Of a stretch of DNA of 64,000 bases, positions 31,655 to 56,770 are shown piece by piece. The notes below the pieces were generated by a model. The model searched no databases. It was not told the origin of the DNA and was given only the letters and a program-made list of their open reading frames with translations. How positions within the stretch are numbered: position 1 is the stretch's first letter; each line of letters opens with the position of its first letter. Origin of the DNA: a virus; the IMG/VR virus record IMGVR_UViG_3300025997_000005. The stretch is one strand, 5' to 3'. The translations under genes and the position numbers were made by a program.

Positions 31655-33036
31655 AATGGAAAATTTAACAATTAAAATCACTATTAGTGATGATGAAAAA
31701 GAAATCAAAGCTACAAACATCAATGTGGGTGATTATAAAAAAACTAAAGACTTACATGGTATCTCTTTGGTTGATGAAATGGTTAATGAATTATTATCTA
31801 CAATCGAAGCGGATAAGTAGTATTGGTTATAACGTATCGGTTGTATGGTTAGTGCGATTTAATAATAATAAACTTTAATGAAATGACAGAAGCAGAGTAA
31901 ATATTCGAAAAACACATTGGGTTAAATACTGAATTAGGTTATTTGCCTTTTGAAAGACGAACCTTTTAATTATTAACCGCCCTTTTTCTTTTATTTTTTT
32001 TGAGCGTGGGCAAATGCTTGTAAAAGCAATTATTTACAAAATAATTAAAATATTTTGCTTTTTTCTTTGGTAGTTACAAAATAAGTTATATATTTGTAGT
32101 GTAATAATTAATTAATAACAATTTAAAACACAAAATTATGAAAACTTTACATTACATCTTAAACACAAAAACAGACGAAAGCTTTGATACAATAGAAATG
32201 AAATTTTATCCTAATAATTGGGAACCTGAAATGGAAGAGGATAAAGATTATTTACAAAGCTTAATTGACGAAGACCCAGAAAAATTTAAAAACTGTATAA
32301 TCGAAACAAGAACTTTTGAATAATGGCTTACTGGTTTTTAAATAAGCAAACAAAAGAGCCGAGAATATTCTCGACTCTTTGCCTGTTATGTGTGAAGAAA
32401 TTACTGAACTTGATAAGCAAAGTTTAGAGTACCATTTTAGCAGACTGAAAAAAGAAGAATTTGAAAACGATAATTACAGAATTGTTAAGCGTAATCTTGA
32501 GAGGGGTGGAAAAAAATAAAAGAAAAAGATTAGAAGCACTAAACGTTGATACAGCACGGAATTAGGCATAAACTATATACCGTGTTGTGCAATCGTTTTA
32601 ATGTTGCACAACGTTTTTCGGCTTGGTGTCTGTTATTTTGCCTTGCAGACATTTCAAGTTTTAGATAAATTTAATAGGTAAAATAATAGCACCAAACCGC
32701 TGTTAGTGGCTGGTGCGGTAAATTAAACGAAAATGAAATTTCATAAAACAAAAGATGGTAAAAAAATTAAGTTGACTGATTTAGAAACGAATCACTTGAA
32801 AAATATCATTAAATGGATTGAACGGAAAGCAAAGGAAGGATTAACGGTAGGAATGGGCGGTGGCTCGTGTGCTGAAGATATGTGGTATGATGAGGAAACT
32901 TATTATGGCAAAGAAGCTAAAAGCCAACTTAATTTTTCAGACTACAAAGCTGAATTGAAGCGGAGAGTTAGCACTTGCCACTAACGTAGATAGGCTATGA
33001 ATAGTAAGGCGATTTTAAAACACAAAACTTTGAATT

Positions 33037-33225
33037 ATGAAATGGATTAAATTAAAAGACCGAAAGCCATCTTGCGAGATTGATGGTGAAAAGATGTTGG
33101 TTTACAGAATAATGAATGAAAGCCAAGCGAGTATGGCAATAAGCATCCTTGATACGAAGATGATTAAATACAGTAATGAGGATGAAACTTGGTGGATGGC
33201 TTTACCTGATGAACCACGAACCTAA
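33037..33225 (+). CDS. DUF551-like small protein encoded inside an attC loop
   Basis: WIKLKDRKP...WWMALPDEP; lies between hairpin arms at 32982 and 33247. Confidence 0.65.
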   Translation: MKWIKLKDRKPSCEIDGEKMLVYRIMNESQASMAISILDTKMIKYSNEDETWWMALPDEPRT

Positions 33226-34494
33226 GCCTTATTATTTATAGCCTTTGTTGTAAAATCGTTTTAATGTTTTACAACGATTTGCAGCTAACCGAAGTTGGCG
33301 ATTACGAAGCACAAAACTTGAATTTAAAAAAAATGTATAATCGAAGCATAAACGTTGATATAACCACTGAACCGCCAATTTTGGTTAGGTGCTGTTATAA
33401 GCCGTTTTTCTTCACAAATTTTAAATAAAATGTATAATAAAATACCAGATAACAAAGTAAAAGAAGCTATAAAGGATTATAGTATTACCAAATTGAAATT
33501 ATTTATAGATGCAATGGATATAGCTAATGAAAAAGCAGAAAGAGGTTCAGATGTTCGTTTCCAAACTTATGATGCTAAACAAGTAGCTATCGACTTGCTT
33601 TATGAAAAGACGTGTAGTTTCTTAAATGGCTTATAACGGAAAAATGTAAAAAATCGTTGCGATATGAATGAAGAACTATTTGGAAAACTGCACGAACAAG
33701 AAGAATATGGATTGTTTGGGAAGGAACACGAACGCCAGCAATGTTTTTTACATAGTGTTAGCACCAGTGCCTACACGAAATTAAATATTAAAACTTAAAT
33801 AAAAATACAATGGCAAAAACAGTAAAATTACCCGATAACATTTCCGAAGAAGAATTAGTAAGGCTTTCTAAAATGAAAGAACTTTATATGACATACACCA
33901 ATGAAGGATTAAAAGATGATGAGTATGAACAAATGAGGCAATTAGCAGAAGAATTATCTTACTGTTTTGCTGTCGATACGAAGGTCTGATGGCATTGGTG
34001 CTAACGGTTTGCAGATAGGCGATGTGGCGGATTTTGGAACGCTGAACTATCTGTAAGCACTTAACTTGATTTGAAACACTAAACTTAATATTAACCGAGA
34101 AACCCGCCATAGTGCTGTTATGTGCTGGCCTTCTCAAAAACTCAAATAGAATGATAAACAAAATAATTGAAATCGCATTTAGTGGCTTTTGGCCATTTGT
34201 AGGAATGATGATATTACTAAACGGAGCGGCCTATTTTGCTGTAAACGGTTTGGTAAAAATGTGGAGCAGGTTTATGAGAATGTTAATGGTTAGGAAACAT
34301 GGTTGGCCGCCTATTCATTTAGATGCTGATGGCGATTGGAAACCTGAGCCAAAAGCTGACTATGACGCTAATTAGGCTTGCACATAACGGTTGCAAATAT
34401 AAAACGTTGTAACAAAAATTATAATTAGTGTAACAAAATTTGAAATTAAACGTATAATATAATTGAAAAACGACAGCAATGTTTTATATTTGTT

Positions 34495-34611
34495 GTTATA
34501 TTTCAGTTTTGGGGATGAGTTTCAGTAAAACTCCTTGAACTATTTGCCATCTGAGAAGGATGCGGTCTGAATTAACAGATACACAATGGTTTCCCCAAAA
34601 TTGAATATAAC
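34495..34611 (+). ncRNA. ORF-less cassette, putative small structured RNA
   Basis: TTTTGGGGA/TCCCCAAAA closing stem with three internal hairpins. Confidence 0.4.
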
Positions 34612-35378
34612 GTTACGCAAGTATGAAACGTGCCAACACAAACTTTGATTGAAACAATGGACATTAAATTAACATAAATATTAACTTAGATGCAGGATAG
34701 GCATGTTTTATACTTGCTGTTAGGCATCTGTAAAAATTACGGATATGAAAGACCAAGACAAACAAATGATGAAATTTAGAGCAAAAGAAGAATTGAAGAT
34801 AAAACTTCTCAAAGTTATATTAGACTATAAAAGTGAAGAAGAACCTAAATGTGAATTAACAAGCACTGATATTATTAATGTTTTATCTTCAATGATAGTA
34901 AGACAAACTGAGTAATTTTTATTGTGCCTAACGTTTTGCGTGTATATGTCAGGGGGGCGATTAGAAGCTCTAACTTTTCAATTACGCAGAAAGTTTGACA
35001 GAAGAACTAAACTTGAATAAACCACAGAACCGCCACTTGCATATACACGCTGTTAGTGGCTGGGCTTTTCACAAAAAAAATTAAAATGACAGACGAAATT
35101 AAAAGACTGAAAAAAGAACTGAAAGACTGGAAATCTCAAGAAGTTAAAGAACGATTTGAAAGAGTTAATTCTCAACTTCATCTTGTTACTATCAATGAAT
35201 TGCAACACAAAATTAAAAGATTGAAACGTGGTGAAGATATTTAGGTCGTTCTTTAGCCTTGCCACTAACGAAAAGTTTATGGCGTGTTGCGTGAACAGAG
35301 AATTAACTTAACAAATAGATAATGAAACATAGTGAAGATATTAAAATGGAAATTGGGGGTAAATTTATAAGTAAAAAT

Positions 35379-35855
35379 ATGGAAATAAGAAAATTAATAG
35401 ATAAAGTTAAAAACTTTGGTAAAACCAAAGTGTATAAATGTGTTGATGGTGTTTACGATAAAAACCGAAGTGGTGTTGATTATTTAGCGGTTAACTTAGA
35501 TTACGCTAAAAAATTCGGTGATAATTGTTATAAAATAACCATAGATACAACAAATTATAATATTCTAAAATTAGATAAATGGAATAAAATTTATAGTGAA
35601 AAAACTGGTAAAAACGGAAATAGATTTAATAGACAACAAGGATTATTCGTAATCGGTGATATAGCAATTACATCAAATTACAAAGAAGAACTTGATTTAT
35701 TTTCAAATGTTTTGGGAGAATACTTATCAAGCAAATTTCTAACTGAATTGAATAGTTGCGATGCTATTTACGGAGAAGACGCAGGATATGTAGGTGAATT
35801 TGTTTTTGCTGTAAAAAATAAAGATATGATACTTGAAATCGAAGCACTTTCGTAG
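35379..35855 (+). CDS. Cassette gene, possible ART-like protein
   Basis: VYK, YLAVNLDYAKKFG, DAI, E motifs. Confidence 0.4.
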   Translation: MEIRKLIDKVKNFGKTKVYKCVDGVYDKNRSGVDYLAVNLDYAKKFGDNCYKITIDTTNYNILKLDKWNKIYSEKTGKNGNRFNRQQGLFVIGDIAITSNYKEELDLFSNVLGEYLSSKFLTELNSCDAIYGEDAGYVGEFVFAVKNKDMILEIEALS

Positions 35856-38586
35856 TATTGGTGCTAACGTTTAGTGTATGGCAAGTAAGCCACGCACGAA
35901 ACTATCAAATTAGTACAAACTTTAATGGCTTATTTGCTATACACTTTGTTAGCATTTCGGCTTTTGTTAAACAATAATATTTAAAAATATGAATGAATTG
36001 AACGATTGGCAAACAGAAATAACAATTGATGCTTTAAATCATTATTGGCGTTATGTTGTTGAAAAACTATCTCAGACAGACTTAGGAGATATTGAACGCA
36101 AGAATTTAGAGTTAGATAAAGAAAGAACTCATTCAACTCTACGGCATCTCGGAGCATTTTAAGCTGAATGCTAACGGTTGCAAATATAAGTAGTTATTAA
36201 CTAAACTTAATTAAAAGAGTAAAAATATTATTAAACAACAATATTTATTAAAAGTAATGAAATAATTGCTTATATTTGTTGTTATAAATATGTAAAAATT
36301 ATGTATAAAAAGAAAGAACAATTTGCAGTTTATGAAAAAGAACCTGCACATGGAAAAGATAAGAATGGTGTGATACTTGCACCATATAATACAAAAGAAG
36401 AAGCAGAAACTGCAAAGAAGCAATATGGTTATGATAACGATAATTATTATGTTGATATACTTAGGTAATAATTTTTATTATTTATAACGTTTTGTAGCTA
36501 TAAGCAGTTGCCAATAAAACTGCCTAAACTTCAAATTAATAAACAATGAAAACAAGAACAAAACGGTCTTTAAATTTAAGACAAAAGTGGCAATTGCTTA
36601 TAACCACTGTTATGAGTAGTGCGGTGTTGTTAAAAGCAAATCACATTTTATTTTGGTGGTATTATAAAAGAGTTCCAAAATTCTTTCATAAATGGACAAT
36701 TTTAAAAAGTGTTACACTACTTAAGCAAAATTATGAACACGCAGAATTTAGATATGAAGGGTTAAATGAAGTTGTTAGAAATGCTTCAAAAAGGGAAAGA
36801 GAAATGACTACTGAAATTTCTAATTTAAGATTAAAATTAATGGGAGTTTCTCAAGATGTTATTGACCCTTTAAATGAAATTTTCGGAACGAATTTAAAAG
36901 GAAAATCGACTTTTGAAAGGGATAATTAGCATTACTCATAACGGTTACGTATAAGAAACGTTGCCATTTTGAAACACGAATGTTAAACTTAAAATAAACT
37001 TGATATGAAATACGAATTTAAAATTACCGATGAAGCTGGCAATGTTTTTTTATACGATGTTAGCCGTAGTTCATCTGATGAAGAAAAAAGTTTGAATGAC
37101 TTCATTTTAGAGGCATTACAGATTTCGGAAGATAAACGTAAGCTACCATTTAAAATACAATGCCCAAACAATTTAGAAGTATATCCTTTATTAAAAATGA
37201 AGTTTGAAAACTATGGTTCGCCACTGCTCGGAGATAAGCTCGAAGCAATGCACGTAACATGGCGTGATTGAATTACGGCTAACGGACGAGTGTATGAAAA
37301 TTAGCCCATACATAGGCGTTCGGAATTATTACAAAACTTAATTAGGCTATTTTTTATACACATTGTTAGAAACCTTTTTTATTATGACAGTAGTACAAGA
37401 ATTAATTGATTATATTAAAACTTATACAAGTTTGAATGACCCTTTGAGAAATAATATAGATGCAGATATTCAAATTTGGTTGAACAAAGAGAAAAAGCAA
37501 ATAGTTGATGCCGTAAATAATGGATGTAAATCTAGGTGTAATATAGATGCTCCAAGAGATGGGGAAACTTATTATAAAGAACGTTTCTCAAATGGTGGCT
37601 AACGGACGGGTATAAACCATCGTTTTAATGTGGTTTATACCTTGTTACCTGCTGGTGCGGTTAATTAACGATAAACTTAAATTAATACACAAGTTTGAAG
37701 AAAAAAGTGGTAGAACATGTGTTGAATTCAGGATATTTTCTGATGGAAGTGGAACTATAAATGAATATGATGTTGAACTTTTTTCTTTTGATACATTAGA
37801 TTACTTAATACAATGGTTGGAAGCATAATTTTTATGTTTGCTAACGAACGAGTGTATGGGTAGTTTTTGCCCGATTAAATAAAACTGAATTATGGATAAG
37901 ATTAAAGAATTAACAGACTTTTATATGTGGATGCAAGAAAATGACTATGACCACAACATAAGAGCAAGAGTTGAAAAAAAAGCAGAAATGTACTTAAAAG
38001 GTATTAACGTAGGGCAAAAATTACCTATACACAATGTTAGCAATCTTTTATGTGGCTCTTTCGACCCTGACAATAGCACAAGCAGTGCCACTAAATGTAA
38101 ATGCGGACGTGAGAAATGTGAACACCCCAAAGCCACATAATTGTTGCTAACGGCAAGGTATAAAAACAGTAGCGACATGAAAGAAAAGATAACTGAATTA
38201 ATGGAAAGATTTGATGAAGGAAACATGTGTATAAATGACCTAGAGCAAGAGCTATTGGTTTTATACAATGTTACCCCACGTTATTCTGTTTCATTGGTAT
38301 TTGTAAACGCAAGAGAAAACCTTTTGCGATGCTTAATAACTGATGCTTCAAATGAACACGAGGCTTTAGGTAAAGCACTTGACCACTTTAAAGAAGAAAC
38401 AAAAGGTTTTAATCTAAGTATGAAAGTTGTACTCCCTGCTTATAATGTGGGGTAACGGTTTGGCTATGTGCCGTTGTGAGGTACGAGCAATGGACATATA
38501 GCCGTTGTTACCATTAGTACGGTAAAATTATTACAAAACTTTTTAATATTCCTTTTGTATTTACAAATTATTTACTATATTTGCAT

Positions 38587-38842
38587 AAGTTCTTTGAGTA
38601 AACAAAACCGAAAACGTGAAAGCAACAAGATGCGGTCTATGGAGATGAGAGTTATGAAGGTTATACGCTATATAAGATAGGGAAAAAGTACGCTTTAGGA
38701 AAATAAAACCCGAACACTTGGCGAAGTGTTCAACCTAAATAAACGGTGGTGTCATAGTTATGCAGGAATTAAAACCGATGCACTGAAAAGAATGTGTTGA
38801 CAGGCTTGATAACAGGCGACTGGGCTGATACTCAAAGAACTT
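38587..38842 (+). ncRNA. Promoter-driven ORF-less cassette, putative ~255-nt structured RNA
   Basis: TATATTTG promoter directly upstream; perfect 14-bp terminal IR AAGTTCTTTGAGTA/TACTCAAAGAACTT; internal GAACACTT/AAGTGTTC hairpin. Confidence 0.55.
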
Positions 38843-39338
38843 TATTATTATAAATTAAGACAAAAAATAAAAAATAACGATATGAATGACTGAAGATACC
38901 AAACAGAAAGCAGTTAATTTATCTGTTTTGGTATTAGGAACTGAAAATATAAGCGGTTATATAAGCTACTTAATCAATAAGGCACATTTAGAAGCACAGA
39001 AGTAGTATTAATGGTAACGTATCGCAGCTAAACGCCTGTGTCCCGCAGGGCATGGCGTTTTAGGTGTTGTTATCTTCTGTTTTTGCGTGCGGTGGGAAAA
39101 TATATTTGTACCTGATTTGGTACTTCCAAATATTATGCGTACCTTTGTTGGTACAAGCACTAAAATATAAAGTTATGCTGAAATGTAAAAAATGCTCTTA
39201 TGAATTTGAAGTACCAAAGAATGCAATTGAACCTGTCTTTGCCATATACTGTAAAGCATGTATCAAAGAAGGTTTAAAAAAAATGGCTAAAATGCCGCTC
39301 AAAGAATACATGAAAATGACAGCTAAATCAATTGGACT

Positions 39339-39623
39339 ATGAATTTGACAGACGAGCAACTCAATGCCTTTCGCAAATTGTGGTTTATATACGGCAATGA
39401 CGGGGGGAAATGCACAATGCTTAACCATAAGCTGGTGCAAGGTTTTTACCAATACCACGAAGATAGGCGGGAAGCCTACCGAGAGGCAGAAAAGAACATG
39501 ACCGAACGCTTTGGTAAGGACAGCCCACGGCTGAAAGACCTCCCCACCGAAGAATGTTTTCAGGTATGCGGTTTGGTATTGGATGGAAAAATAGCTAAAG
39601 CGTTAGAAATAGCTAAAGAATGA
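39339..39623 (+). CDS. Cassette gene, hypothetical (GC-richer than surroundings)
   Basis: ATGA-coupled in a three-gene cassette. Confidence 0.7.
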   Translation: MNLTDEQLNAFRKLWFIYGNDGGKCTMLNHKLVQGFYQYHEDRREAYREAEKNMTERFGKDSPRLKDLPTEECFQVCGLVLDGKIAKALEIAKE

Positions 39624-39796
39624 AAGACTGGCTAAAAGAAAGACCTTGCCTTTCGCTTCGTTGTTTGGAACGTGAGGCAGGGCTTCCTACTAAAACCCTT
39701 AGCCATTACTTGCAGGGGAGGCGGGAATTGAATGAGCAACATCTTCAAAAGCTGACTCCTGTACTTGAGCGGTATGGGTGGGAAAGCAAAAATTGA
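39620..39796 (+). CDS. Small HTH protein closing a three-gene cassette
   Basis: LRCLEREAGLPTKTLSHYLQGRR (below the ORF-track length cutoff). Confidence 0.7.
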   Translation: MKDWLKERPCLSLRCLEREAGLPTKTLSHYLQGRRELNEQHLQKLTPVLERYGWESKN

Positions 39797-40521
39797 AGAT
39801 AACGTTAAAAATAAACGCAGAACGATGAAAGAGAAAATAGAACAGATGTACATACAGGCTTTGATAGATGACCTTGCGCCCAATGTATTCGCAGACCAAG
39901 TTTTGCGTTTATTGGGTGTTGGCACACGTACTTTCCGATTTTCTGGAATGGCAAACGGAGTGAAGTTTGTAATAAATGTACAAGCACCAAACAGGGAATC
40001 AGCTATTGCTTACTTTGAAGATGAACATCCTAAACTGAATTGGAGGACAACTACTGAAATAACGGACATTTCTTAGTATGTGTGCCAACGGTTGGGTATA
40101 TATGCAGTACCTTTGCACGAACTTTGAATATTAGTATAAACCTTAATAAGGTATTGCATATATACCTTGTTAGCAACAGTAATATTTTATGAACGAAATT
40201 AAAATCGGAGAAAATAGATTAATTCCCAAAGGAACTAAGTTTTGGTCAATCAAAAACCAAACAAATATTTTATTGGATGAAGATGCTATTGTAGAAGTAA
40301 AACATACTTGTATTGGAAGTGATGTGGTTTTTGTTGAACCAAAACAGTTGATATTTAATATGATTGGACACATACCAACATTAATAGGAAGAGGAACTGA
40401 TGAATGGGAATTAAGCTATTCCAAAACATTACCATATACTGTTCCAGAAGCACAATTCTAATTATTGTTGCTAACGTTTTGGGTATGGTTAGTTTTTTAA
40501 CGGGTAAATAAAACAGAAATT

Positions 40522-40770
40522 ATGATAAAAGAAATAGAAAATAAAATAGGACAATTGCAATACGAGATTAGTTGTTTAGGATTGGATAAAGAAGAATTGA
40601 CTGGTGTTAGTGTAAGAACGGAAGAATTAAAGGTACTAGTTAAAAAATTAACTATACCCGTTGTTGTAGGGCGAAGCGAACAGTTAAAATGCGAACACAA
40701 AGGTCGCAGAACAGCAACTGAACTCGTGGAATATTGCGAAGATTGTAAAAAGATACTTTACCATCCGTAG
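40522..40770 (+). CDS. Loop-to-body fusion ORF with C-terminal zinc-finger module
   Basis: VVGRSEQLKCEH...CEDC shared with 52467-52712. Confidence 0.75.
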   Translation: MIKEIENKIGQLQYEISCLGLDKEELTGVSVRTEELKVLVKKLTIPVVVGRSEQLKCEHKGRRTATELVEYCEDCKKILYHP

Positions 40771-40936
40771 CATTTTAATTGCCTACAACGGATGGTGCTA
40801 TATGTCAGGTTTGCCTTGTAGAAATTGTCAAGTTACAACAAACTTAATGGCAAACTTGCATATAGCACGTGTTATAGCCAGTACGGTTTAATTAGTACAA
40901 AACTTTAATCGAAGAACTAAAAAAAGAATTTAAAAA

Positions 40937-42022
40937 ATGAGCGTGGGAAAAGAAAAAATAAATGTATTGAGTTTGTTTGATGGTATTAGCTGTGGACAGA
41001 TTGCGTTAGAACGACAAGGAATTGAAGTTGAAAATTACTTTGCTTCTGAAATTGAGCCATCACCAATAAAAGTAACACAAGCAAATTATCCAAATACAAA
41101 GCAATTAGGAAGTGTTTTGACTGTAAAAGGTGCTGACTTACCAAAGATTGATTTATTGATAGGTGGAAGCCCTTGTCAAGGGTTTTCATTTGCAGGGAAG
41201 CAACTAAACTTTGATGACCCAAGAAGTAAACTGTTTTTTGAGTTTGTGAGATTGAAAAACGAATGTAATCCGACTTACTTTTTATTGGAAAATGTAAAGA
41301 TGAAAAAGGAATACCAAAATATAATTTCAAGTTATTTAGGTGTAGAGCCAATAATGATAAACTCAAATTTAGTATCAGCACAAAATAGAGTTAGGTATTA
41401 TTGGACAAACATACCAGTAAAAGGATTACCAAACGATAAAACCATCCTACTAAAAGATATTACCGAAGATGGATTGCAAAGTTTAGGTTTAGCACAAAGA
41501 GGTAGATACGATGAGAATGGGAAAGTAATTCAGAAATATGAGTTGAACGGTACAGAAAAAAGCAATGCAATGACAACCGTTGCAAAAGATACTTTGCTAT
41601 TTATACCTGTTGACAAACATTCTTCAAACTCTGGATTAGTTTGCTTGGGTGGTGTAATGAAACCAACACATAAACTTTGGCTTGATAATGGAAAATTATT
41701 ACAGCGTAATTTTTCACAAGGAAATAGAGTTTATTCAAGCAATGGAAAATCAGCAACACTAAACGCAAATAGCGGTGGGATTGGTGGAAAAACGGGACTA
41801 TATGAGATTGAGGGTGTAATTAGAAAACTAACAAGATTAGAGTGTGAAAGATTGCAAACTGTACCTGATGGATATACAAACTCAATTTCAGACACACAAG
41901 CAATTAAGGCGCTTGGTAATGGCTGGACTGTGGATGTGATTTCTTTTATTTTTTCTTTTTTGAGAGGGGAAAATTTTTTAAATTCTTTTTCTTACGAAAG
42001 TTCAATCGAAGCACAAAAGTAG
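40937..42022 (+). CDS. DNA (cytosine-5)-methyltransferase (cassette)
   Basis: LSLFDG, GGSPCQ, ENV, QNRVRYYW, RLQT, LGNGW. Confidence 0.93.
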   Translation: MSVGKEKINVLSLFDGISCGQIALERQGIEVENYFASEIEPSPIKVTQANYPNTKQLGSVLTVKGADLPKIDLLIGGSPCQGFSFAGKQLNFDDPRSKLFFEFVRLKNECNPTYFLLENVKMKKEYQNIISSYLGVEPIMINSNLVSAQNRVRYYWTNIPVKGLPNDKTILLKDITEDGLQSLGLAQRGRYDENGKVIQKYELNGTEKSNAMTTVAKDTLLFIPVDKHSSNSGLVCLGGVMKPTHKLWLDNGKLLQRNFSQGNRVYSSNGKSATLNANSGGIGGKTGLYEIEGVIRKLTRLECERLQTVPDGYTNSISDTQAIKALGNGWTVDVISFIFSFLRGENFLNSFSYESSIEAQK

Positions 42023-43127
42023 TATTGGCTATAACGTGATGCAGCTAAACGCTGCGGAGCGTAGCGGAGTTGCGATTTAGGTGCTGTTATGCATCTGGTG
42101 GCGGACTTAAAAGACAAATATTATGAAAAATAAAGCAGATTACAGTAAATACGAATGCCCATACTCGCATTTAGAAAAGGAAAGTGGACACGAACTGCAC
42201 GGACCAGAAGGTTATCAAGATTGCTATGGTGTATGGTGTGCTTGTGGTTTTCGAGCACCTGTATTTTATTTAGAGCCTGATGAATTAGGACTAAAGTTGA
42301 AAAAGGAAACGGATGTAGCCACTTGTGCATAACGGGAAGTATATGCGTTCGGTTGCGATTAGAAGCACGAACGTATCAATTTAAAAGAAAACTTAATAGA
42401 ATGGAAAAAGTATCGAATAAGCACCAAACTGCAACTGACGTATATACAGTGTTACCCACCGTTTTTGATTCGGTGGCTGATGCCGTTAAAAAACTAAAAC
42501 TTGACAAAAGGCATAAATGGGAAGAGTTTTGCGGTGAATTAGTTTACCCTTACAAGTATAGCCACGCTTGTAGTGGATGTGCAGAACAAAAAGAAATGCA
42601 ACAAACACCACAAAAAGGTTGTGGATGCCATGAATGTGGATATACAGGTAGAAAGCGTGATGTAGTTCCTGTACCTGCATTTATGCCTGACGGAAGTATT
42701 GTGAAAGTACGTTCTTCAAATGGTGGGTAACGGTTGAGGCTAAAAGCAGTTGCCTATAACAAATACTGCTTGATAACACGCTTAGTTGCAATTGCTTTTT
42801 AGCCTTTGTTATAAGCTGTAAAAATTAAACTTATGAATTGGGTAATTTGGAATAAAACAAAAGACAAGTTTTGGGATGATAAAAATAAAGATTGGAGCAA
42901 TCAATTTTATGCTACAAAATTTACGTTTAAAGAACTTGAAAAGCGATTAGAAACAAAAACTTGGCTTGGTGGTGGAGATGTGATATTAGCAGTAGTAGCG
43001 GTGTATGTTTAATTTTTATTGCTTATAACGATAGGTATATGGTTTGTGCCTTTTGAAAAACGAACCTTTTAATTATTAACCGCCCTTTTTCTTTTATTTT
43101 TTTAGCGAGGGCAAAAGAACTAAAATT

Positions 43128-43430
43128 ATGAGAGGTGGATACACTTTAGACTGGAATGATAAAATGCTTTCAGAAAAGAAAATAACTAAAAGCACTTATT
43201 TGGTAAACAAAAAGTACATCGAATTGGACGATGCTTTAGATAAAGCTATTGATAAACTTAAAAAACATTATAGGAAACTATATAAAGCTGAAATTGAAAG
43301 TGCTGAAACGAAGGAAGATTTTGAAGCTATTAAAAACAAACTTCGTATGATGCCAGAATCTGTAGCTAAAGTTTTTATGTTTAGAGATATTATTTTAAGG
43401 GAGGAAGAAAAAATAAAAGAAAAAGATTAG
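43128..43430 (+). CDS. Hypothetical protein encoded inside an attC loop
   Basis: Between arms GGTATATGGTTTGTGCCT and AGGCATAAACTATATACC. Confidence 0.7.
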   Translation: MRGGYTLDWNDKMLSEKKITKSTYLVNKKYIELDDALDKAIDKLKKHYRKLYKAEIESAETKEDFEAIKNKLRMMPESVAKVFMFRDIILREEEKIKEKD

Positions 43431-43976
43431 AAGCACAAAACTTTTATACAGCACGGAATTAGGCATAAACTATATACCGTGTTGTAAAATCGTTTTAATG
43501 TTTTACAACGTTAAAGTATAACCGCTAGTTGGCGATTTAAAAGCGAAAATTATGGATAAAAAACAAAGTAAAATAAAAAGCACAGACGATGGATTAAGCA
43601 CTAAACCAGCCAATTACGGTTATACAGTGTTAGCCACCGTTTTTGAAAAGCACATACTCCATTTTGACATTGGGGATAGTGTTTATTTAAAAACAGACCC
43701 TGAACAATGTGAGAGACTTGTAACTGGTATAAATATTAGACAAAATGGAATTAGTTACGCACTATCACATTTGACAAACGAAAGCTATCACTATGACTTT
43801 GAAATAAGTAAAGAACGTGATATTGTAAAAGCCACTTCATCTTAAATGGTGGCTAACGGACAGGTATATGAAAAGTAGCCTAACCACAGACTTTGATATT
43901 ATGTACTGACCTTTCATAGGCTATTTTTTATATACCATGTTAGCCATATGGTGCGGTTTAATTAACGAAATTTAAA

Positions 43977-44489
43977 ATGAAAACATTAGTAATACATCCG
44001 AAAGATTCAACAACCGATTTCTTGTGTGAAATATACAAGGATAAAGATTGGACTGTTATCAATACAAACACATCAAAAAAAGTGTTGAAAGAACAAATAA
44101 AAGAACACGATAGAATTGTGATGTTAGGACACGGAACAGAAAAAGGATTACTTGGATTTAACAAATTTGTAATTGATTCAACGTGGGTTTATTTGTTACG
44201 TGATAAAAATTGTGTTTGTATTTGGTGTAATGCTGATGAATTTGTTATGAAATATGGATTAAAAGGATTTTATACTGGTATGATAATTTCAGAATATGAA
44301 GAAGCTATTATATGTTGTGTCCCTACAAATTCACAATGGATAGCTGAATCAAATACTGATTTTGCATTAGCAATTAAAAACTCAATTAATGATGAAAATA
44401 TGTTAGAAAAAGCAAAAATTCTATACGAAGGTAATTCTTCGGTTGTTGAATTTAATCGCAACAATCTTTATTACGAAGCACTATCGTAG
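43977..44489 (+). CDS. Cassette gene, hypothetical (MLGHG, CIWCNA)
   Basis: 170-aa ORF filling body 43939-44503. Confidence 0.75.
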   Translation: MKTLVIHPKDSTTDFLCEIYKDKDWTVINTNTSKKVLKEQIKEHDRIVMLGHGTEKGLLGFNKFVIDSTWVYLLRDKNCVCIWCNADEFVMKYGLKGFYTGMIISEYEEAIICCVPTNSQWIAESNTDFALAIKNSINDENMLEKAKILYEGNSSVVEFNRNNLYYEALS

Positions 44490-45409
44490 CACTTGTGGCT
44501 AACGGTAAGTATAAGAATAGTAGGCGATTTAAAACGCTAAACTTCGCAACCAGAAAGAGTTAATTAAATGAATATAAACAACCTACTTGCACGGACACGC
44601 CTATTGTTTTTATACATTGTTATGCGTTCGTTTTGTGCGGTGGTATAAAACTTTAAAAATGACACGAACAAAGAAACTTTACGGATTCAGATTAGGAGAA
44701 AGCATTCCAAAATGGACTGACAGATTTGGAAGAAAAGGAGGTAAAATAATTCAGTTAATTAGATTAAAATACTGTAATAAATTTCAGATACAGATAAGCA
44801 ACGGGGATATCTTGACAACTGAATTTATGATACAGGATGATTTTCATAAGCGTGGGTTGGCAAATGAGGCATAACGGATTAGTATAAACTTAGTTAAAAA
44901 AACGGAAAATTATGTACACAAGTTTTTATATAGCAGAAAGCAGACTTAACGAACTAAAATCTTTTATTAGGGTCGGTTTTTTATTTAGTCCCCTGCGAAG
45001 AAGGTCAAGCTTTAATTTCTGAAGAATTACCTACTATGAAAGATTGGTGTTTGAATATGTATGCAACTAACTTTAGTAGACGAGTGCAACCACCTAAGAA
45101 AATTAGACATTATAAAAATGCCATTAAGGATTATAGATGGGAGTACCATAGAAAAGTAGTAGCAGCAGACCACATAAGAGACTTACCAAACATTAAGGCG
45201 TTTTTAAATTGCGACTAACGTTTTGCGTGTAAGGAAATTTGCGTGCAAGTACACTGCAATTTTCAGATTAATAAATAAAAATAATTAAAAAACCAGAACA
45301 AATGGAATTAAACATAATTAGCAATTTTTACAAATCGATGTTTGCAGTAGTGCCTTTATAGAATTAAAATAAAACTTCTAGGTGAAGTTATAAAACCCAA
45401 ATAAATAAA

Positions 45410-45613
45410 ATGAATAAATTAAAACAAGCACCAATGGCTAAGTATAGTAACCAAGTGCAAACAAGTAGGGATTACTCAAAGTTTAAAACTTTGATTGGTA
45501 ACAGAAAGCCAAATGAATTGCACATTAAAAGGCTAATCAGTTCATTTAAGGAACGCTATTTATTCAGTCCAATACTTGTAAATGAAAAAATGCAAATCAA
45601 TGTTGTGCTTTAG
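45410..45613 (+). pseudogene. Truncated ParB-like N-terminal fragment
   Basis: DYSKFK.LIGNR...PILVNEKMQI, cut before the expected IDGQHR by a junction at ~45600. Confidence 0.6.
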
Positions 45614-46136
45614 TTATTTTGCGGGTTATGTAAAAATATGTTTACTTTAATTTGGTAGTTAGTAAATTTATGTTTACATTTACAGAGTAAAACAAATAGA
45701 GATGGAAACTGTAACAATAACAAAAAGAATTATAAACGGAACAGAGGTTTATAACAAAAGGTTTGATGATTATGAAAAAGGTTTTTATGGCGAAAAAATT
45801 TCTAAAAAAGAATATGAAGAAAGTAAATCTTCTAATACGCCAAAATATACAGATACAAATAAAACATTAAACATTATAGAAAGGATAACTTATGAAAACT
45901 AGAAAGAAAAAAGTTTTTACAAACTGGTGCAGAAGTTGTCATTTTGATTGGATGATTGCTGTAAGAGAAGTAAAAGGTAAAAGGTGGATGAATGTATTAT
46001 CTCACCTTGAAAACAAAGGAAATTTTAATGTTGATGATTTTAATAAAATTGAAGATTCTTGGAAAAAGATATTAGAAACAATCAATTTAATGACAGAAGA
46101 AGAAATAAGTTATTTACACAATCAAAAATACAATGT

Positions 46137-46316
46137 ATGAATTGGCACGAAAGATTTAAAGCAATGAAATCAGGGTTAGGATTAACTAACTCCGATATTG
46201 CTGGCATAACTGGTAATAGTGATGATTCTGTAAAGTCGATTACTCAACCAAATAAAGACATACCACGTTGGCTAAAACTCGCTATTGTAGTTTATGAACG
46301 GATGGTAGCAAAATAA
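46137..46316 (+). CDS. Small HTH protein closing a three-gene cassette
   Basis: LGLTNSDIAGITGNSDDSVKS...IPRW. Confidence 0.7.
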   Translation: MNWHERFKAMKSGLGLTNSDIAGITGNSDDSVKSITQPNKDIPRWLKLAIVVYERMVAK

Positions 46317-49300
46317 TTAAGCACAACGGTCTTGTATATGAAAAGTAGCGTGTAAATAAGCACATACTTTTCCGACTAAAATAACGTTATTAAATTAGTA
46401 AAGCAAATTGAGTTTAGCACTTATTTAGCTATTTTTTATATACGGTGTTGGCAATAGTTATTTTATTTTCGTATTATTAACAATAATTTAAGTCAAAAAT
46501 ATTTACTTTTGCACTCAATTTCACTTATATTAGTATTATGGAATTAAATTTTTTAGAAATGATAGACACAGATAAAAGGACAGACTTTTTGTTTCCAAAG
46601 AGAAGTTTTTGGACAGGTTTTTCTAATGTATTAAGCATTTTCGGAGAACCAAATAAATTTAACACTTCAAAATCAGGAGAAGAAGCAGACTACAAAGCTT
46701 TAAAATCCGATTGGGAAATGGTTGGACAAGATATTCGGAATGTAATGTCTGATGAAATTAAATTGTCAGACTGTGAGTAAACGAAAGGAGGATGATAATC
46801 ATTAGTGTTTTCATCAACTTTTTTATATCTAAATGTATTATTAAAATAATTTCTATTTTTATAAATCATCATTTTTTTTTCAAATGTGTGCCAACGTTTT
46901 GCGTGTAAGGAAATTTGCGTGCAAGTACACAGCAAGTTTCAGATTAATAACTAAAAATAATTAAAAAATAAAAATAAGTGATAAAATATTTGGAAATTTG
47001 ATTTAAATGTTTTATATTTGTTGTTATAAAATCGTAAAATTATGAACTTAGAAACTTGGATTGTAGTTGAAAATGGTGATATGTTTGAAGGAACACGAGA
47101 ACAGTTTATGGATTGTTTCTTTTCAAATGCAACAGATGAAGAAATTAAAGATTGGTGTTTTGATAATGGTTGGAAACTTAAAATAGGCGAAGAAACAATC
47201 TTTGCTTAATAATTTTATGTTTTATAACGGACAGGTATATGGTTAGTGCACCTACCACAAACTATTAAACTAAGCACTGACCTTCATTGGTACATTAACT
47301 ATATACAATGTTGTGTGCCGTTAATTTTAGAATTATGAGAACTGGATATTTTGCAAACACAAAAACAACAACAAAAACACATTTGGTAGATAGCAATAAT
47401 AAACCAATATGTAAAAGTAACATCAGAAATAAAACTTTTCAATGGTGTGCAAACGGTGTAATGTACTCTTACATTGAATGCAATACTTGCAAAACAAAAG
47501 CAAAACAACTATTGGAGCAAGAGGTTAAAGACCGTTTGCGTTAATGGCACACAACGATGAGGCTAAGAAACGTAGCCTTGTAATCACGTTTCAAAATAGG
47601 TAGGAACTTTATTGGCTATGTTTTTTAGCCTGTGTTACCACCAGTTAATTTAATAATTATGTTTAAAATTTACAAAGGATATTTGAAATGGAAAATGATT
47701 TCCTTAATCAAGGATAAAATAATACACTACACAGTTGAAAAAAACAATTATTTACAACGACAAAATGAATGGGAAAAGAAAGAATATAAACCAAATAGAT
47801 GTTCAGATGAAGCAAGGTTTGAAAAAGAAAAAGCAGAACAAATAAGATGGTCTAATGAACAATATAAAGTAAACCATTTTAAAGGTGAGGCTGTTTTAGA
47901 AATACTCCGAATGGTTGAGAACCTTTAATTGGTGGTAACGGGTTGTGTATGAAACGTGGTGGAATAGAAACCACATAACTATCAAATTACTAATAACTTA
48001 ATAGAATGAACGAAACTTTAAATAACGCAGAAACCCAGCATGTTTTATATTGCGTGTTGTGCGTAGTGCTTTAATAATCAAAACGATGGAACAAATTTAT
48101 TATTGGATTGGATTAGTAGTTTTTTGGCTTTCTGCAATAATTGGAAGCGTAGTAGCAGTAGGATATTTAAGTAAACTTCTACTTGATAAATTAGGTAGGC
48201 AGATAAAAACTACTTGGATAATTGTTGAGTTTGCTTATTATCGAAAAGAGTTTAAAGAGTGGGTTAAAGACAAAAAACGGCATCCGAAGTGCAAATCTTA
48301 GCATTACGCACAACGTTTTGCGTATATACAAGGTACGCCTTAACGAAATTTCAATTATAAACAAATGCTTGTAGGCGTATCTTGTATATACGCTGTTAGC
48401 AGATAGTAAAAATTACGGATTATGAAAGAAAAACATATTTGTTCTGCTACTGTAAATGACAAAACAAGTAGGCAGATTATGAGTAAAATGATAAACGGAT
48501 TTTCTGATGAAATATGTGGGTTTAATGCTAAATACTTTGAAAATAATAATTGGTATTGTGGCAAACACGCACCAAGTAAAATAGCAGAACGAGAACGAAT
48601 AAGTTATGAAAAGTGGAAAGCTAAAATTGAAGCACGAAAGCAGTAATTTTTATTTCTGCTAACGGTACGCAAGTATAAAACGTGCCAACACAAACTTTGA
48701 TTGGAACAATGAATTTGAAATTAACATAAATATTAACTTAGATGCACGACAGGCATGTTTTATACTTGCTGTTAGGCATCTGTAAAAATTACGTATATGG
48801 AACAAAAAGTAAAACACGATATTTATAAGATGCTGATACCAATAATTGGTACATGGTGGGTAATAAAGCGAATATTGCCTGATTTGGGTGAAATAACATG
48901 GTGGGATATATCTAAATATTCAATTCCATTAACATTCGGATTAGTGATGTATCAGGCGATATGTTGGATAGGGTACAAAGTGTTTTACATGATGTACTTT
49001 TTTGATTACACATTTGAACAAGTATTTACGCAATGGTAGTAATTTTTATTGTGCCTAACGGACGAGTGTATGGCAAGTGCCTACACAGAACTTAATTAAT
49101 AATACAAAATATTGAAATTATGAAACAAATTATCAAAAGAATACAAAAGGCATTTGCTATACACATTGTTAGCAAACGTTTTAAGATTGAATTTTTAATG
49201 GATGGAAATTTAGAACCATTACACACAACTTACTTGGAAGGTAAGAATAAAAATGACGTAGAAAAAAGGTTTGATAGACTTGATTTAGAAAGCAGACGAG

Positions 49301-49749
49301 ATATTGTTAGTGTAAATGTTTGCTAACGTTTTGCAAATAAAAACAGTAAAAGATATGAAACGACAAATTTTAAAAATAGCAGATGAACTTGCCAATGATG
49401 TAATAACTACGGAACAGGCAAAAAACCTTTTATTGGTTTTATTTGATGTTAGCCACAGTACTTCTTACTTAGATGATAAGTACGAGGTTAAATGGCTAAT
49501 AAATAATACATACCAAGTAGAACAAAATGGGCACTGCGTGTATCAAGGAACTGAAAGTGATTGTAATGAATGGCTTAAATGTCAGTTAGGGTATTGTGGC
49601 TAACGTGCCGAGTATATGAAATGTAGCGTGTAAACAGCCGAAAAGCAACGATTAAGAGCTGAATTAAATAAATAGAATATTAACCAAGTGGGAAGCGAAA
49701 ACAGCTATATTTTATATACTGTGTTACCCACTTTTAAAAATAGCGGTAA

Positions 49750-50052
49750 ATGAAAGCTAAACTAGAAAAATATAACGGAATTGATTACTTGACTTTTAAA
49801 GTAAATGAAGAAATTGGATTAACACAACTTCCTGTAATTACAAAAGGAACACGAGAAGGCACAAATGCTTGGACTTGGAACGGTGATTTGGAAAAACCAA
49901 CACTAAGACCAAGCGTAAGAACAGGCTACTACAATGGTAAAGAAACGACGGAAATACATTACTGGCTTAATGATGGAATTGCTGATTGCTTGGGCGATTG
50001 CAAAGATGGAAATGCAGGTAAAAAACTTGCCTTAATGGAACTCGAACAGTAG
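49750..50052 (+). CDS. DUF6527-like protein (cassette)
   Basis: WTWNGDLEKPTLRPSV, H.WLNDG. Confidence 0.7.
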   Translation: MKAKLEKYNGIDYLTFKVNEEIGLTQLPVITKGTREGTNAWTWNGDLEKPTLRPSVRTGYYNGKETTEIHYWLNDGIADCLGDCKDGNAGKKLALMELEQ

Positions 50053-50701
50053 CCATTTTTTATTGTGGCTAACGGTTGCGTGTATATTCAGGTTTGCTTG
50101 TAGAGACCTTGAATTATGCACAAATGCTGATGCAAACTTGAATATACACGTTGTTATGCTCTCGTTGCGGTAAATTTACTCAAACCCTTCAATCGAAGCA
50201 CTAAAAACATTTTTATTCTTTTGTGTGATGGGGAAAATAATTATATTGATTATCAACATATTAGAAAATATATTGAAAATATTTGCAAATTTATTAGGTA
50301 ATTTGAAACAAAAGTATTACCTTTGACGTATAAATTAATAAACAACTTAAAATTTAAAGGTATGACAAATTCAGAATTAAACAAATTATCAGTTGCTGAA
50401 CTTAGGGAGTTAAGAAATAGAGTAACTGAAATGCTTCAATTGAAAATGCAAATTGAAGGTAAATTAAACAAGGATGTTTTAAAATTTGGTATGACCGTTA
50501 AATATATTGGTGGTCGTGATAAAATTAAAAACGAAACTTTTGTAATCGAAAGAATTAACAAAGTGAATGCTGTTTGTAAAAGTAATGTAGATGGAAGACG
50601 TTGGAATATTAATATTGCAAACATTCAACCATGTGAAGATTTAATAGAAACAATGGGAGATGATAATTATGAACCAGAAAGTGGTTTCCAAAAATAAAAT
50701 T

Positions 50702-50887
50702 ATGGCAAAGCGAATATCATTAAAATTAACTGACAAAAATGATTGGTTAGTTGAAGCAATAAATAAGGAAATTGATGAAACGAATAGACCATCATTTAAT
50801 AATATGGTTGAAACCATTCTTGTTTCTTATTTTAAAGCGAAGGAAGAAAAGAATAAAAATGTTACCACAAATGCTAATTCGGAGTAG
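50702..50887 (+). CDS. Small ribbon-helix-helix protein closing a cassette
   Basis: KRISLKL...SFNNMVETIL. Confidence 0.6.
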   Translation: MAKRISLKLTDKNDWLVEAINKEIDETNRPSFNNMVETILVSYFKAKEEKNKNVTTNANSE

Positions 50888-50942
50888 TTCCTTAGCAATG
50901 GAGCATAACGGACAATAATAAACAATCGTAAAATTATGACTT

Positions 50943-51209
50943 ATGAAAAAATTTAAAGGAAGCAAACACTCACATGCTAAATGGGTGGCAGAAGAATTAT
51001 TTAATGAGATGCAAAACACAGTTGATGAAGCAGCAGAATTGTTTGCTTCTGATATTTATAGCATAGCCAAGTGTTGCTCTTATAAAGCTATTGAACTAAA
51101 TAAACTAGCAGTTCTTGACGGATGGGGTTATAAAGAGGTTTGTAATCAAACACAAGAGCAACACGACTTTTGGGAACTCGTGAAATCATATTTAGATGAC
51201 ATTAAATAA
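50943..51209 (+). CDS. Hypothetical protein encoded inside an attC loop
   Basis: Between arms at 50906 and 51230; followed by a 29-bp empty body. Confidence 0.7.
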   Translation: MKKFKGSKHSHAKWVAEELFNEMQNTVDEAAELFASDIYSIAKCCSYKAIELNKLAVLDGWGYKEVCNQTQEQHDFWELVKSYLDDIK

Positions 51210-51864
51210 TTTTATGTTGTTTATTTATTGTTGTGGTGTCGTTTTAATGCAGCACAACGTTAAGTATATGGCAAGTTGGGGATTAAAATGTGCTACCCTT
51301 TTAATTTGCAGAAAAGTAAATTAAAAGCACAAATGTAGTTTATTGGAATTGCGCCCCAATTTGCTATATACATTGTTAGGCGCAGTTATTTTTAAAATTA
51401 TGACAACAAAAAAATTAGTGAACTTAATGATGAAATCTTCTGACCACAATCCATATACTGGTAAGCTGTCAGAAAGTGCTAATGTATTGGCTGCAATAGA
51501 ACTTGCAAAAAAGTTTAAGGAATTTGCAGACGAAGTATATACAGACGAGGCAATGGGTATTGAAAGCAGCCAATGGGTTGAAGTGATAAACAAACTTGAA
51601 GAGAAGCGACTTAATTGCGCCTAACGGTTGGGTGTATATGTAGTAGTGGATAGAAAGAACCGAGCTTTGATTAACCACTGAACTTCATAGAAACAACTAA
51701 CGTTGATTTACAGATGAAACCACCATTACATATACACCTTGTTATGACCAGTACGGTTTATTTACCACAAAACTCGATTAGAACCACTGAACAAAACTTT
51801 TTAAAAATGTGCGGTGGGAAATTTAATTATGAATATTTATATATAAGATAAAGTATTTACTTAT

Positions 51865-56734: not shown

Positions 56735-56770
56735 CTACAACAACACTTATACACAATATATAAAAACGTC
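56735..56770 (-). promoter_or_regulatory. Putative attI-like site
   Basis: Last core CTACAAC is not followed by G or a hairpin; minus strand reads TGTGTATAAGTGTT-GTTGTAG; directly upstream of the integrase ATG. Confidence 0.55.

What the first reader, a model, noticed from the sequence alone, without database searches (positions are those of the whole stretch)
31830..51258. Genes encoded inside the attC hairpin loop
Seen: each 29-bp empty body is preceded by a hairpin whose loop holds whole genes: 33037-33225, 43128-43430, 50943-51209, and a promoter plus ORF 32138-32323. Known: attC sites are usually under ~150 bp and long loops reduce folding and recombination. Inference: an inside-out cassette type where cargo lies within the recombination site.
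Basis: partly seen in the sequence, partly recalled or inferred. Interest (0 to 1): 0.8.

Follow-up and report, generated by a model that had tools for sequence, protein, structure and literature searches.

The report
Genes inside phage cassette hairpins
In a large Bacteroidota-type phage, four small mobile gene units carry their gene inside the loop of the DNA hairpin that marks the swap point, leaving the usual gene slot nearly empty. The same design recurs in over a hundred other viral contigs and in cultured Cellulophaga phages, so this integron-like system has two places to load cargo.

Summary
Three long inverted-repeat pairs (32983-33249, 43027-43483, 50907-51232) each enclose one plus-strand ORF. 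Each is followed at once by a 29-bp hairpin, GTTGTnnnn-TCGTTTTAATG-nnnnACAAC. A fourth case (31831-32612) has the same right end, but its left arm has decayed.

The design is general:
- The 29-bp hairpin occurs in more than 117 IMG/VR contigs, in Cellulophaga phages phi39:1 and phi19:1, and in Bacteroidota genomes.
- In 40 canonical units, a plus-strand ORF fills at least 60% of the hairpin in 35. Cargo includes Mom-like, DNA methylase and HNH genes.

The whole unit, from AAC to AAC, is a discrete module. It sits in different contexts at 85-98% identity, and strain variants of this phage mostly break at AAC triplets.

The array obeys the integron cassette rule and ends at a conserved site beside a Xer-like (not IntI) tyrosine recombinase. 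Relatives of that enzyme always lie downstream of such hairpin arrays.

So the "inside-out cassette" reading is supported as architecture. Recombination itself, and whether the long stem must fold, are inferred.

I found no paper describing this. Earlier notes of this scan report the same design on other DNA.

Verdict: new variant of a known kind; interest 0.72.

The parts
31831..32612 (+). Unit e1. Cassette from AAC (31831) to the last AAC of its 29-bp hairpin (32584-32612). It holds a promoter-like site (32036-32099) and ORF 32138-32323. The left arm is decayed. An inner perfect 19-nt inverted repeat lies at 31982-32000 / 32510-32528.
   Evidence: It shares its shell with e2. The boundary AAC pairs 7/7 with the preceding R' flank. 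Arm pairing probability is only 0.02.
32983..33275 (+). Unit e3. Long hairpin 32983-33249 (267 nt) enclosing ORF 33037-33225 (62 aa), then the 29-bp hairpin 33247-33275.
   Evidence: arm pairing P 0.78-0.81 on the + strand. Weak DUF551 hit only.
43027..43509 (+). Unit e2. Long hairpin 43027-43483 (457 nt) enclosing ORF 43128-43430 (100 aa), then the 29-bp hairpin 43481-43509. Inner 18-nt perfect inverted repeat at 43085-43102 / 43408-43425.
   Evidence: (P 0.84-0.90). The same shell occurs with other payloads in L103, L017, L105, L031 and L071.
50907..51258 (+). Unit e4. Long hairpin 50907-51232 (326 nt) enclosing ORF 50943-51209 (88 aa), then the 29-bp hairpin 51230-51258.
   Evidence: P 0.82-0.93.
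30494..30539 (+). Compact AAC...GTT hairpin whose apical loop is the same 11-nt filler TCGTTTTAATG (empty loop slot).
   Evidence: The same hairpin family precedes ordinary genes in L165 and L186, and an empty body in L184.
37601..37646 (+). Second compact AAC...GTT hairpin with the TCGTTTTAATG loop.
42808..43029 (+). Ordinary cassette body upstream of e2. ORF 42833-43012 is enclosed by 26-nt GTT...AAC arms (GTTATAAGC.../...GCTTATAAC). This is the filled counterpart of the 29-bp hairpin.
   Evidence: (I4, 88% complementary).
56739..56791 (+). Array end. The last AAC is followed by a conserved A/T-rich site (relatives: AAC|TAnnATATATA) about 55 nt before the recombinase start. Candidate primary integration site (attI-like).
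56792..57601 (+). 269-aa Xer-like tyrosine recombinase with a full catalytic set (R131, K156, H217, R220, H243, Y252).
   Evidence: Relatives lie downstream of + strand hairpin arrays: 0.67 hairpins/kb upstream against 0.019/kb downstream.

Best explanation
Each unit is one mobile cassette of a phage-borne, integron-like gene-capture system, and it is built inside-out.

On the gene-sense strand a cassette runs from one AAC triplet to the next. An ordinary cassette reads:
- AAC, spacer, left arm (GTATATGR...);
- a short loop;
- right arm (...YATATAC), spacer, GTT;
- then leader, ORF and a short stretch that pairs with the bases just after GTT;
- then the next AAC.

In the four units the ORF with its leader lies between the two arms. 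The ORF slot is reduced to the 11-nt filler TCGTTTTAATG, which looks like a leader plus ATG with no ORF. The filler is closed by the 9-bp GTTGTnnnn/nnnnACAAC stem.

As a single-stranded circle both cassette types are the same dumbbell: one stem (R box plus L box) and two loops, either of which can hold cargo. In the inside-out type the R box folds locally as the 29-bp hairpin, and the L box must close across the gene.

The Xer-like tyrosine recombinase encoded at the array end presumably binds the folded stem. It would exchange strands at A|AC with the conserved AAC|TAnnATATATA site upstream of its own gene.

Shown: the anatomy, its generality, the AAC-to-AAC unit boundaries, the cassette rule, the strand bias of folding, and the link between recombinase and arrays.
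Inferred: single-strand folding, the enzyme's role, the exact cut, and how a gene came to lie in the loop.
For: - Anatomy and predicted folding of three units.
- Empty 29-bp hairpins follow only the four longest of 40 hairpins.
- More than 117 viral contigs carry the 29-bp hairpin, always after a right arm.
- The upstream partner arm scores above a reversed control in 72/100 units.
- Arms are specific to their own partner: -22.1 against -8.1 kcal/mol, and the own arm is the best partner in 35/41.
- A + strand ORF covers at least 60% of the hairpin in 35/40 units, against 1/40 for the - strand.
- Loop cargo includes Mom-like, N6/N4 methylase, HNH and DUF7768 genes.
- The design occurs in cultured Cellulophaga phages phi39:1 (gp03) and phi19:1 (gp045).
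- The unit is a discrete AAC-to-AAC module in four pairs with different flanks.
- A cassette triplicated in L161 is bounded AAC to AAC, and no GTT-to-GTT module was seen.
- Strain variants of this phage break at AAC at window positions 49324, 52412 and 34005.
- Cassette rule: the 7 nt after GTT pair with the 7 nt before the next AAC (mean 5.5/7), against 2.6/7 for the site's own flank and for the null.
- 40/42 hairpins are more stable on the sense strand, with 103 G-T/U pairs against 18. In integrons the recombining strand is likewise the favoured one (PMC5027507).
- Recombinase homologues sit directly after the 29-bp hairpin in L017 and L028 and downstream of hairpin arrays in 57 loci.
Against: - No recombination was observed. 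Each of the three units whose loop ORF was looked up lies at the same place in all 23-24 contigs of this phage that were read.
- Unit e1 is not predicted to fold.
- Loops of 200-800 nt should slow hairpin formation in single-stranded DNA (established for attC sites).
- The enzyme lacks the IntI-specific part. It matches TIGR02249 only over residues 14-180, at 72 bits against a cut-off of 265.
- One of the four strain breakpoints lies inside or after a hairpin rather than at AAC.
- Many homology ends fall at GTT because hairpin families are shared.
- The sense-strand G-U bias fits an RNA structure equally well.
- The left arm was chosen as the best-scoring partner, which inflates the arm scores somewhat.
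- The window's four loop ORFs have no detectable homologues.
Confidence: 0.6

Rival explanations
1. The units are mobile cassettes, but the long stem is a relic and plays no part. Recombination uses only local structure: the 29-bp hairpin supplies a complete R box, and the neighbouring arm sequences (the right arm of the unit and the left arm of the next hairpin, which share the GTATAT/ATATAC core) supply an L box. Together they form a compact 'mirror' site capped at the R-box end.
For: - The 29-bp hairpin folds in every prediction.
- Unit e1 keeps its right end and 29-bp hairpin although its left arm has decayed.
- All arms share a consensus core, so adjacent arms can pair.
- Long loops are known to hamper attC folding.
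Against: - Arms are far more complementary to their own partner than to the arms of other units, with compensatory differences between families. That would not persist without selection, or without very recent origin in every one of about 40 units.
- The left boundary of the mobile module is the AAC of the distant left arm.
Confidence: 0.2
2. The hairpins act in the mRNA, as processing, stability or translation signals between small phage genes. An ORF enclosed by a long stem would then be like rRNAs in RNase III stems. Modules would be shuffled by homologous recombination at short conserved boxes, as proposed for PeSL motifs in T4-type phages. The recombinase would be incidental.
For: - Strong bias for folding on the sense strand, with 12% G-U pairs.
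- Leader-like motifs (CGnTTTAA...ATG) sit in the loops.
- Hairpin modules and gene modules assort independently.
- One strain breakpoint looks like exchange inside a hairpin.
Against: - Breakpoints are sharp and fall at the AAC triplet.
- Under the RNA reading, the pairing of each GTT flank with the flank of the next AAC has no obvious role. It follows directly from circular cassette intermediates.
- Hairpin density is 36-fold higher upstream than downstream of a conserved recombinase family, with a conserved site at the junction.
- Units also occur singly in unrelated phages.
Confidence: 0.12
3. The loop gene arrived as a separate element that inserted into the tip of a pre-existing hairpin of about 190 nt. 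The 'cassette within the site' would then be a nested insertion by a second mechanism. This applies at least to the e1/e2 shell family.
For: - In e1, e2, L103, L017, L105, L031 and L071 the payload lies between direct repeats of GAGCGnGGGCAAAA at the tip of an inner 18-19-bp inverted repeat that covaries between subfamilies.
- Without the payload the shell would resemble the 190-193-nt hairpins at 37847, 40473 and 56433.
- The repeat is read in different frames at its two ends, so it is conserved as DNA.
Against: - Most units (e3, e4 and most IMG/VR units) have only a short leader and an ORF between the arms, with no inner repeat.
- The same inner shell also surrounds the two methylase genes in the ordinary body position at 25.7 and 55.6 kb, so it is not specific to loops.
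- No enzyme for such insertion is identified.
Confidence: 0.2
4. Chance inverted repeats in AT-rich DNA around ordinary small genes. There is no special unit.
For: AT-rich sequence gives many spurious arm matches; the reversed control reaches scores up to 32.
Against: - The arms carry the array's specific consensus (AACG-N4-GTATATG...).
- They coincide with module boundaries and ORF boundaries.
- They are always joined to a 21-base-specified motif found in more than 117 viral contigs, where about 0.03 are expected (my arithmetic).
Confidence: 0.01

Closest known systems
Integrons (IntI integrase, attI, attC-bounded gene cassettes)
   Same: - Imperfect hairpin sites with AAC/GTT cores and an asymmetric internal spacer.
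- The flank after one site pairs with the flank before the next site (cassette rule).
- An array of promoterless-looking small genes ends at a conserved site beside a tyrosine recombinase of the Xer/IntI clade.
- One strand folds better than the other.
- Cargo is enriched in DNA-modification genes.
   Different: - The recombinase is 269 aa, closest to XerA, and lacks the IntI-specific insertion.
- It is carried by phages of Bacteroidota.
- Genes run toward the recombinase, which is antisense to the canonical cassette orientation.
- The crossover maps to AAC on the gene-sense strand.
- Here the gene lies inside the hairpin (200-800-nt loop), whereas attC sites are roughly 57-141 nt by my recollection and hold no genes.
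Clusters of attC sites in bacteriophage genomes (CALINs; Qi et al. 2023, PMC9892861)
   Same: attC-type sites in virulent phages, including the flavobacterial Polaribacter phage P12002L. Methyltransferase cargo. Some of those sites recombine with IntI1 in an assay.
   Different: That paper reports 2 or more canonical attC sites per phage found with IntegronFinder/HattCI. It reports no phage-encoded Xer-like recombinase, no large arrays, and no gene-in-loop cassettes. Sites with loops longer than 200 nt would be missed by such tools (my knowledge of their default size limit).
PeSL motifs (promoter-early stem-loops) in T4-type phages (PMC2839356, PMC4122927)
   Same: Conserved intergenic stem-loop modules flank small accessory genes in hypervariable phage regions and mark the borders of swapped modules.
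   Different: PeSLs are promoter-terminator composites thought to act through homologous recombination. They have no AAC/GTT core, no cassette rule, no associated recombinase, and no genes inside the stem-loop.
Xer-mediated integration of folded single-stranded phage DNA (CTX phage of Vibrio cholerae)
   Same: A Xer-type recombinase acts on a hairpin formed by single-stranded phage DNA (established knowledge). This shows that enzymes of this clade can use folded sites without the IntI insertion.
   Different: CTX uses host XerCD and a dif site to integrate a whole phage genome. It is not an array of gene cassettes.

Membership tests
Integron | IntI-type integrase with the family-specific additional domain | tested here: not met
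   TIGR02249 scores 72 bits against a cut-off of 265 and matches only residues 14-180. The best NCBIfam hit is XerA, at 136 bits against a cut-off of 220. The closest solved chains are XerA (4a8e, 5hxy); IntI4 (2a3v) matches in two pieces. The protein is 269 aa.
Integron | attC sites: imperfect inverted repeats R''-L''...L'-R' with conserved AAC and GTT | tested here: met
   About 40 curated sites in the window have an AACG start, a GTT end, GTATAT/ATATAC inner boxes and a longer 5' spacer.
Integron | Cassette rule: bases after the crossover in one site are complementary to the R'' of the next site, not of its own | tested here: met
   Next site 5.5/7 (19 of 28 with at least 6/7). Own site 2.6/7. 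Null 2.6/7.
Integron | attI site next to the integrase gene, at the array end where cassettes enter | tested here: inconclusive
   A conserved AAC|TAnnATATATA sequence lies about 55 nt upstream of the recombinase start in the window and in at least 11 other loci. Its function was not tested.
Integron | Crossover at G|TT of R', so that each gene travels with the attC downstream of it, and ORFs are sense to the attC top strand | tested here: not met
   Modules are bounded AAC to AAC, with the hairpin upstream of its gene. Viewed from the recombinase this equals the canonical geometry, but with all genes inverted.
Integron | attC length of roughly 57-141 nt with a short variable terminal structure | tested here: not met
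   The four units have hairpins of 267, 326, 457 and about 756 nt with whole ORFs in the loop. Ordinary sites in the array are 46-193 nt.
Integron | Recombination of folded single-stranded sites by the integrase | not testable with these tools
   Only indirect evidence: strand-biased stability and sharp module boundaries.
PeSL-type regulatory cassettes | Early promoter fused to a terminator stem-loop at module borders | tested here: not met
   The hairpins lack a T-run and a promoter consensus by reading the sequences; the promoter/terminator scan tool was not run. Only e1 carries a Bacteroidota-type promoter-like site, and it lies inside its loop (D10 family).

The most novel reading that the evidence does not exclude
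The hairpin-plus-29-bp structure is a reusable two-slot scaffold. New cassettes would be born when an ORF is loaded behind the leader-ATG filler TCGTTTTAATG in either loop: the apical loop or the body. Fully empty scaffolds (as in L184), half-filled ones, and both filled types would then be stages of cassette genesis. If so, the origin of integron-type cassettes could be observed directly in phages.
Probability: 0.25. Interest if true: 0.9.

Novelty: new variant of a known kind. Interest (0 to 1): 0.72.

Why it matters
How genes become joined to their recombination sites is an open question in integron biology, and attC sites are treated as short, cargo-free hairpins.

These units show a natural, widespread cassette form in which the gene lies inside the site. 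Tools that cap attC length will therefore miss such cassettes. The units also place a ready-made experimental contrast side by side in one array: the same scaffold with its loop filled or its body filled.

They circulate counter-defence-type genes (Mom-like, DNA methylases) among Bacteroidota phages, including cultured Cellulophaga phages in which the idea can be tested.

Tried and rejected
- **Rfam.** No family matches the units. At gathering threshold only tRNAs match; in 31700-33500 at E up to 5 there was one chance hit.
- **CRISPR repeat or IS200/IS605 end.** I considered both for the 29-bp hairpin and dropped them. Copies are single, always joined to a right arm, and bounded by AAC.
- **Circular-permutation origin** (the same dumbbell cut at a second AAC in the L box). 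The arms of the inside-out units look like ordinary arms, not like R-box sequences, so this is not supported.
- **Filled versus empty site pairs.** None were found among the 117 loci. Relatives of phi39:1 have a different gene (HNH) upstream of terS, so no clean comparison was possible.
- **Recombinase as a single-protein query.** It found only one distant locus; an alignment was needed.
- **Whole genome.** None is held for this window.
- **Homologues of the loop ORFs.** Searches returned nothing for the window's four loop ORFs.
- **Detour.** A 420-nt gene shared at 91% among unrelated Cellulophaga phages has no hairpin flanks and was set aside.
- **Relaxed pattern in species genomes.** The 17-base pattern gives about half chance hits, so only the 55 hits with paired stems were used.


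Full report
**Context**

No genome is held for the window. Its genes are those of a large AT-rich phage-like genome:
- tRNAs;
- a sigma-70 factor, a PRPP synthetase, a NUMOD4/HNH endonuclease, DNA methylases and a TnpB.

From about 27.4 to 56.7 kb, small + strand ORFs are separated by imperfect hairpins. Each hairpin starts with AAC(G) and ends with GTT. A 269-aa tyrosine recombinase gene follows at 56792-57601. It is Xer-like, not IntI, and carries all the catalytic residues.

**The observation**

The motif TCGTTTTAATG occurs six times, all on the + strand. Four copies are the loop of a 29-bp hairpin, GTTGTnnnn-TCGTTTTAATG-nnnnACAAC, whose stems covary. Two are the apical loop of compact AAC...GTT hairpins (30494-30539, 37601-37646).

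Each 29-bp hairpin abuts the right arm of a long inverted repeat:
- 32983-33249, around ORF 33037-33225;
- 43027-43483, around ORF 43128-43430;
- 50907-51232, around ORF 50943-51209.

Full-length folds pair these arms with probability 0.78-0.93. The four 29-bp hairpins follow exactly the four longest of 40 curated hairpins.

The fourth unit (31831-32612) is a degraded example. It shares 57 nt of left inner shell and 105 nt of right end with the 43027 unit, and it begins at a true cassette boundary. It holds a Bacteroidota-type promoter-like site and ORF 32138-32323. Its arm next to the shell has decayed, and the arm at 31831 is not predicted to pair.

**Generality**

By my arithmetic about 0.03 are expected by chance. 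In every case an arm of the form ...TTATATACnGT precedes the hairpin.

- A partner arm of the form AACG-N4-GTATATGAnTAGT lies 200-900 nt upstream in most cases. Its score beats a reversed control in 72/100 units.
- In 40 canonical units, the longest + strand ORF covers at least 60% of the hairpin in 35. The longest - strand ORF does so in 1.
- Arms fit their own partner far better than the arms of other units: -22.1 against -8.1 kcal/mol, and the own arm is the best partner in 35/41. Because I selected the best-scoring partner, this figure is somewhat inflated.
- Loop cargo includes full-length Mom-like proteins (two different shells), an N6/N4 DNA methylase, an HNH endonuclease and a DUF7768 protein.
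- The window's four loop ORFs match no family or homologue.
- The design also occurs in cultured Cellulophaga phages. In phi39:1, gp03 sits in the loop, followed by the 29-bp hairpin and a compact hairpin, just upstream of terS. A degenerate copy surrounds gp045 of phi19:1.
- In species genomes, 55 of 120 hits to a relaxed pattern have paired stems and the arm. They are mostly Bacteroidota: Formosa, Aequorivita, Gillisia, Polaribacter, Flavobacterium and Bacteroidales MAGs.

**What the unit is**

Three lines of evidence show that the array is built of cassettes with integron-like logic.

1. The cassette rule holds. The 7 nt after each GTT pair with the 7 nt before the next AAC (mean 5.5/7). 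They do not pair with the flank of their own AAC (2.6/7, equal to the null). Every gene is therefore enclosed by a GTT...AAC stem; arms reach 26 nt around ORF 42833-43012. The 29-bp hairpin is the empty version of that stem.

2. Module borders lie at AAC.
   - Four pairs of units at 85-98% identity sit in unrelated flanks, with identity beginning at AAC and ending at ACAAC.
   - A cassette present three times in L161 is bounded AAC to AAC, and no GTT-to-GTT module was seen.
   - Strain variants of this same phage, more than 99.9% identical in shared blocks, diverge at AAC at 49324, 52412 and 34005.
   - One further breakpoint lies inside or after hairpin 51256-51377.
   - Many homology ends also fall at GTT. 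These are mostly shared hairpin families.

3. The recombinase is tied to the arrays.
   - Homologues lie directly after the 29-bp hairpin in L017 and L028.
   - In 57 loci found with an alignment of the family, + strand hairpins are 36 times denser upstream than downstream.
   - The last AAC is followed by a conserved TAnnATATATA sequence about 55 nt before the start codon.

Seen from the recombinase, the geometry is that of an integron (enzyme, primary site, cassettes with the site at the far end), except that all genes are inverted.

The hairpins are more stable on the gene-sense strand in 40/42 cases, with 103 against 18 G-T/U pairs. In integrons the recombining strand is likewise favoured by nucleotide skew (PMC5027507).

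**Mechanism proposed**

A cassette as a single-stranded circle is a dumbbell with one stem and two loops. Ordinary cassettes put the gene in the loop beyond the R box. The four units put it in the loop beyond the L box and leave the other loop with the filler.

The filler resembles the conserved start of all gene-bearing loops (CGnTTTAA...ATG) with the ORF missing. Fully empty scaffolds also exist (L184).

In the inside-out form the R box is a local 29-bp hairpin, and only the L box needs long-range pairing.

All of this is inference from anatomy. No recombination was seen, and each of the three units whose loop ORF was looked up occupies the same place in the 23-24 contigs of this phage that were read.

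**Rivals**

- The long stem may be a relic, with a local mirror site doing the work.
- The hairpins may act in RNA, with exchange by homologous recombination as proposed for PeSL motifs.
- For the e1/e2 shell family, the payload may have entered the tip of a 190-nt hairpin by another route. In that family the payload lies between direct repeats of GAGCGnGGGCAAAA inside a covarying inner inverted repeat. The same inner shell also surrounds two methylase genes in the ordinary position, and its repeat is read in different frames at the two ends.

**Known and new**

Qi et al. 2023 reported attC clusters in phages, including a Polaribacter phage. PeSL motifs are the nearest phage analogue.

I found no paper on hairpin cassettes with a Xer-like enzyme in phages, or on genes inside attC-type sites. 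The library is limited, so this absence is weak evidence.

Earlier notes of this scan describe the same system on other DNA, and one (e1-5692990) describes the same gene-in-loop design. My tests agree with them, but they are not independent evidence.

**Verdict**

This is a new variant of a known kind. The mechanism is open but directly testable in cultured Cellulophaga phages.

Noticed in passing
window 25719-25761 and 55588-55630; right ends 27393-27425 and about 56360-56385: Two unrelated methylases (C5 and N6/N4) begin with the same peptide, M(K/E)NERSNNIFLS(E/G)G. It is encoded by a shared DNA module (inner inverted repeat plus GAGCGnGGGC) that recurs at their 3' ends in another frame. 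The L-S-E motif resembles a prohead-protease cleavage site, by my recollection of T4.
   Followed up: partly
window 49324, 52412, 34005 (against L346 and L345): Near-identical strain variants of this phage from other samples carry different cassette blocks. Sequence identity switches on or off exactly at AAC triplets.
   Followed up: yes
window 29700-29730 against 49590-49611 and 53605-53640: At 29716 a gene's end (GTGGCT) is joined directly to a downstream leader (CTCGTGCC). In paralogous copies a whole hairpin lies between these two sequences. This looks like a precise hairpin deletion.
   Followed up: partly
window 8169-8386 and 27546-27763 (also 2336-2403): A 218-nt G+C-richer repeat, 97% identical, has one copy at the start of the cassette array. 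It has no Rfam match. It may be a structured RNA or an element end.
   Followed up: no
window 22840-24072 (-): An IS605-type TnpB (OrfB_IS605, Cas12f-like TNB domain) lies just upstream of the array.
   Followed up: no
L119:4117-4542 (Cellulophaga phage phi19:1 gp051): A single 420-nt gene is about 91% identical in Cellulophaga phages of several unrelated genome types (phi4:1, phiST, phi13:1, phi18:3, phi46:3). It has no hairpin flanks.
   Followed up: partly
L022, L089, L056 (29-bp hairpins): The two halves of some 29-bp hairpin stems belong to different stem types (for example GTGCTT with TGCTAC). This is as expected from an exchange within the conserved 11-nt loop.
   Followed up: no
L184:2530-2610: A fully empty cassette: a compact hairpin with the filler loop is followed directly by an empty GTT...AAC hairpin with the same filler.
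   Followed up: partly
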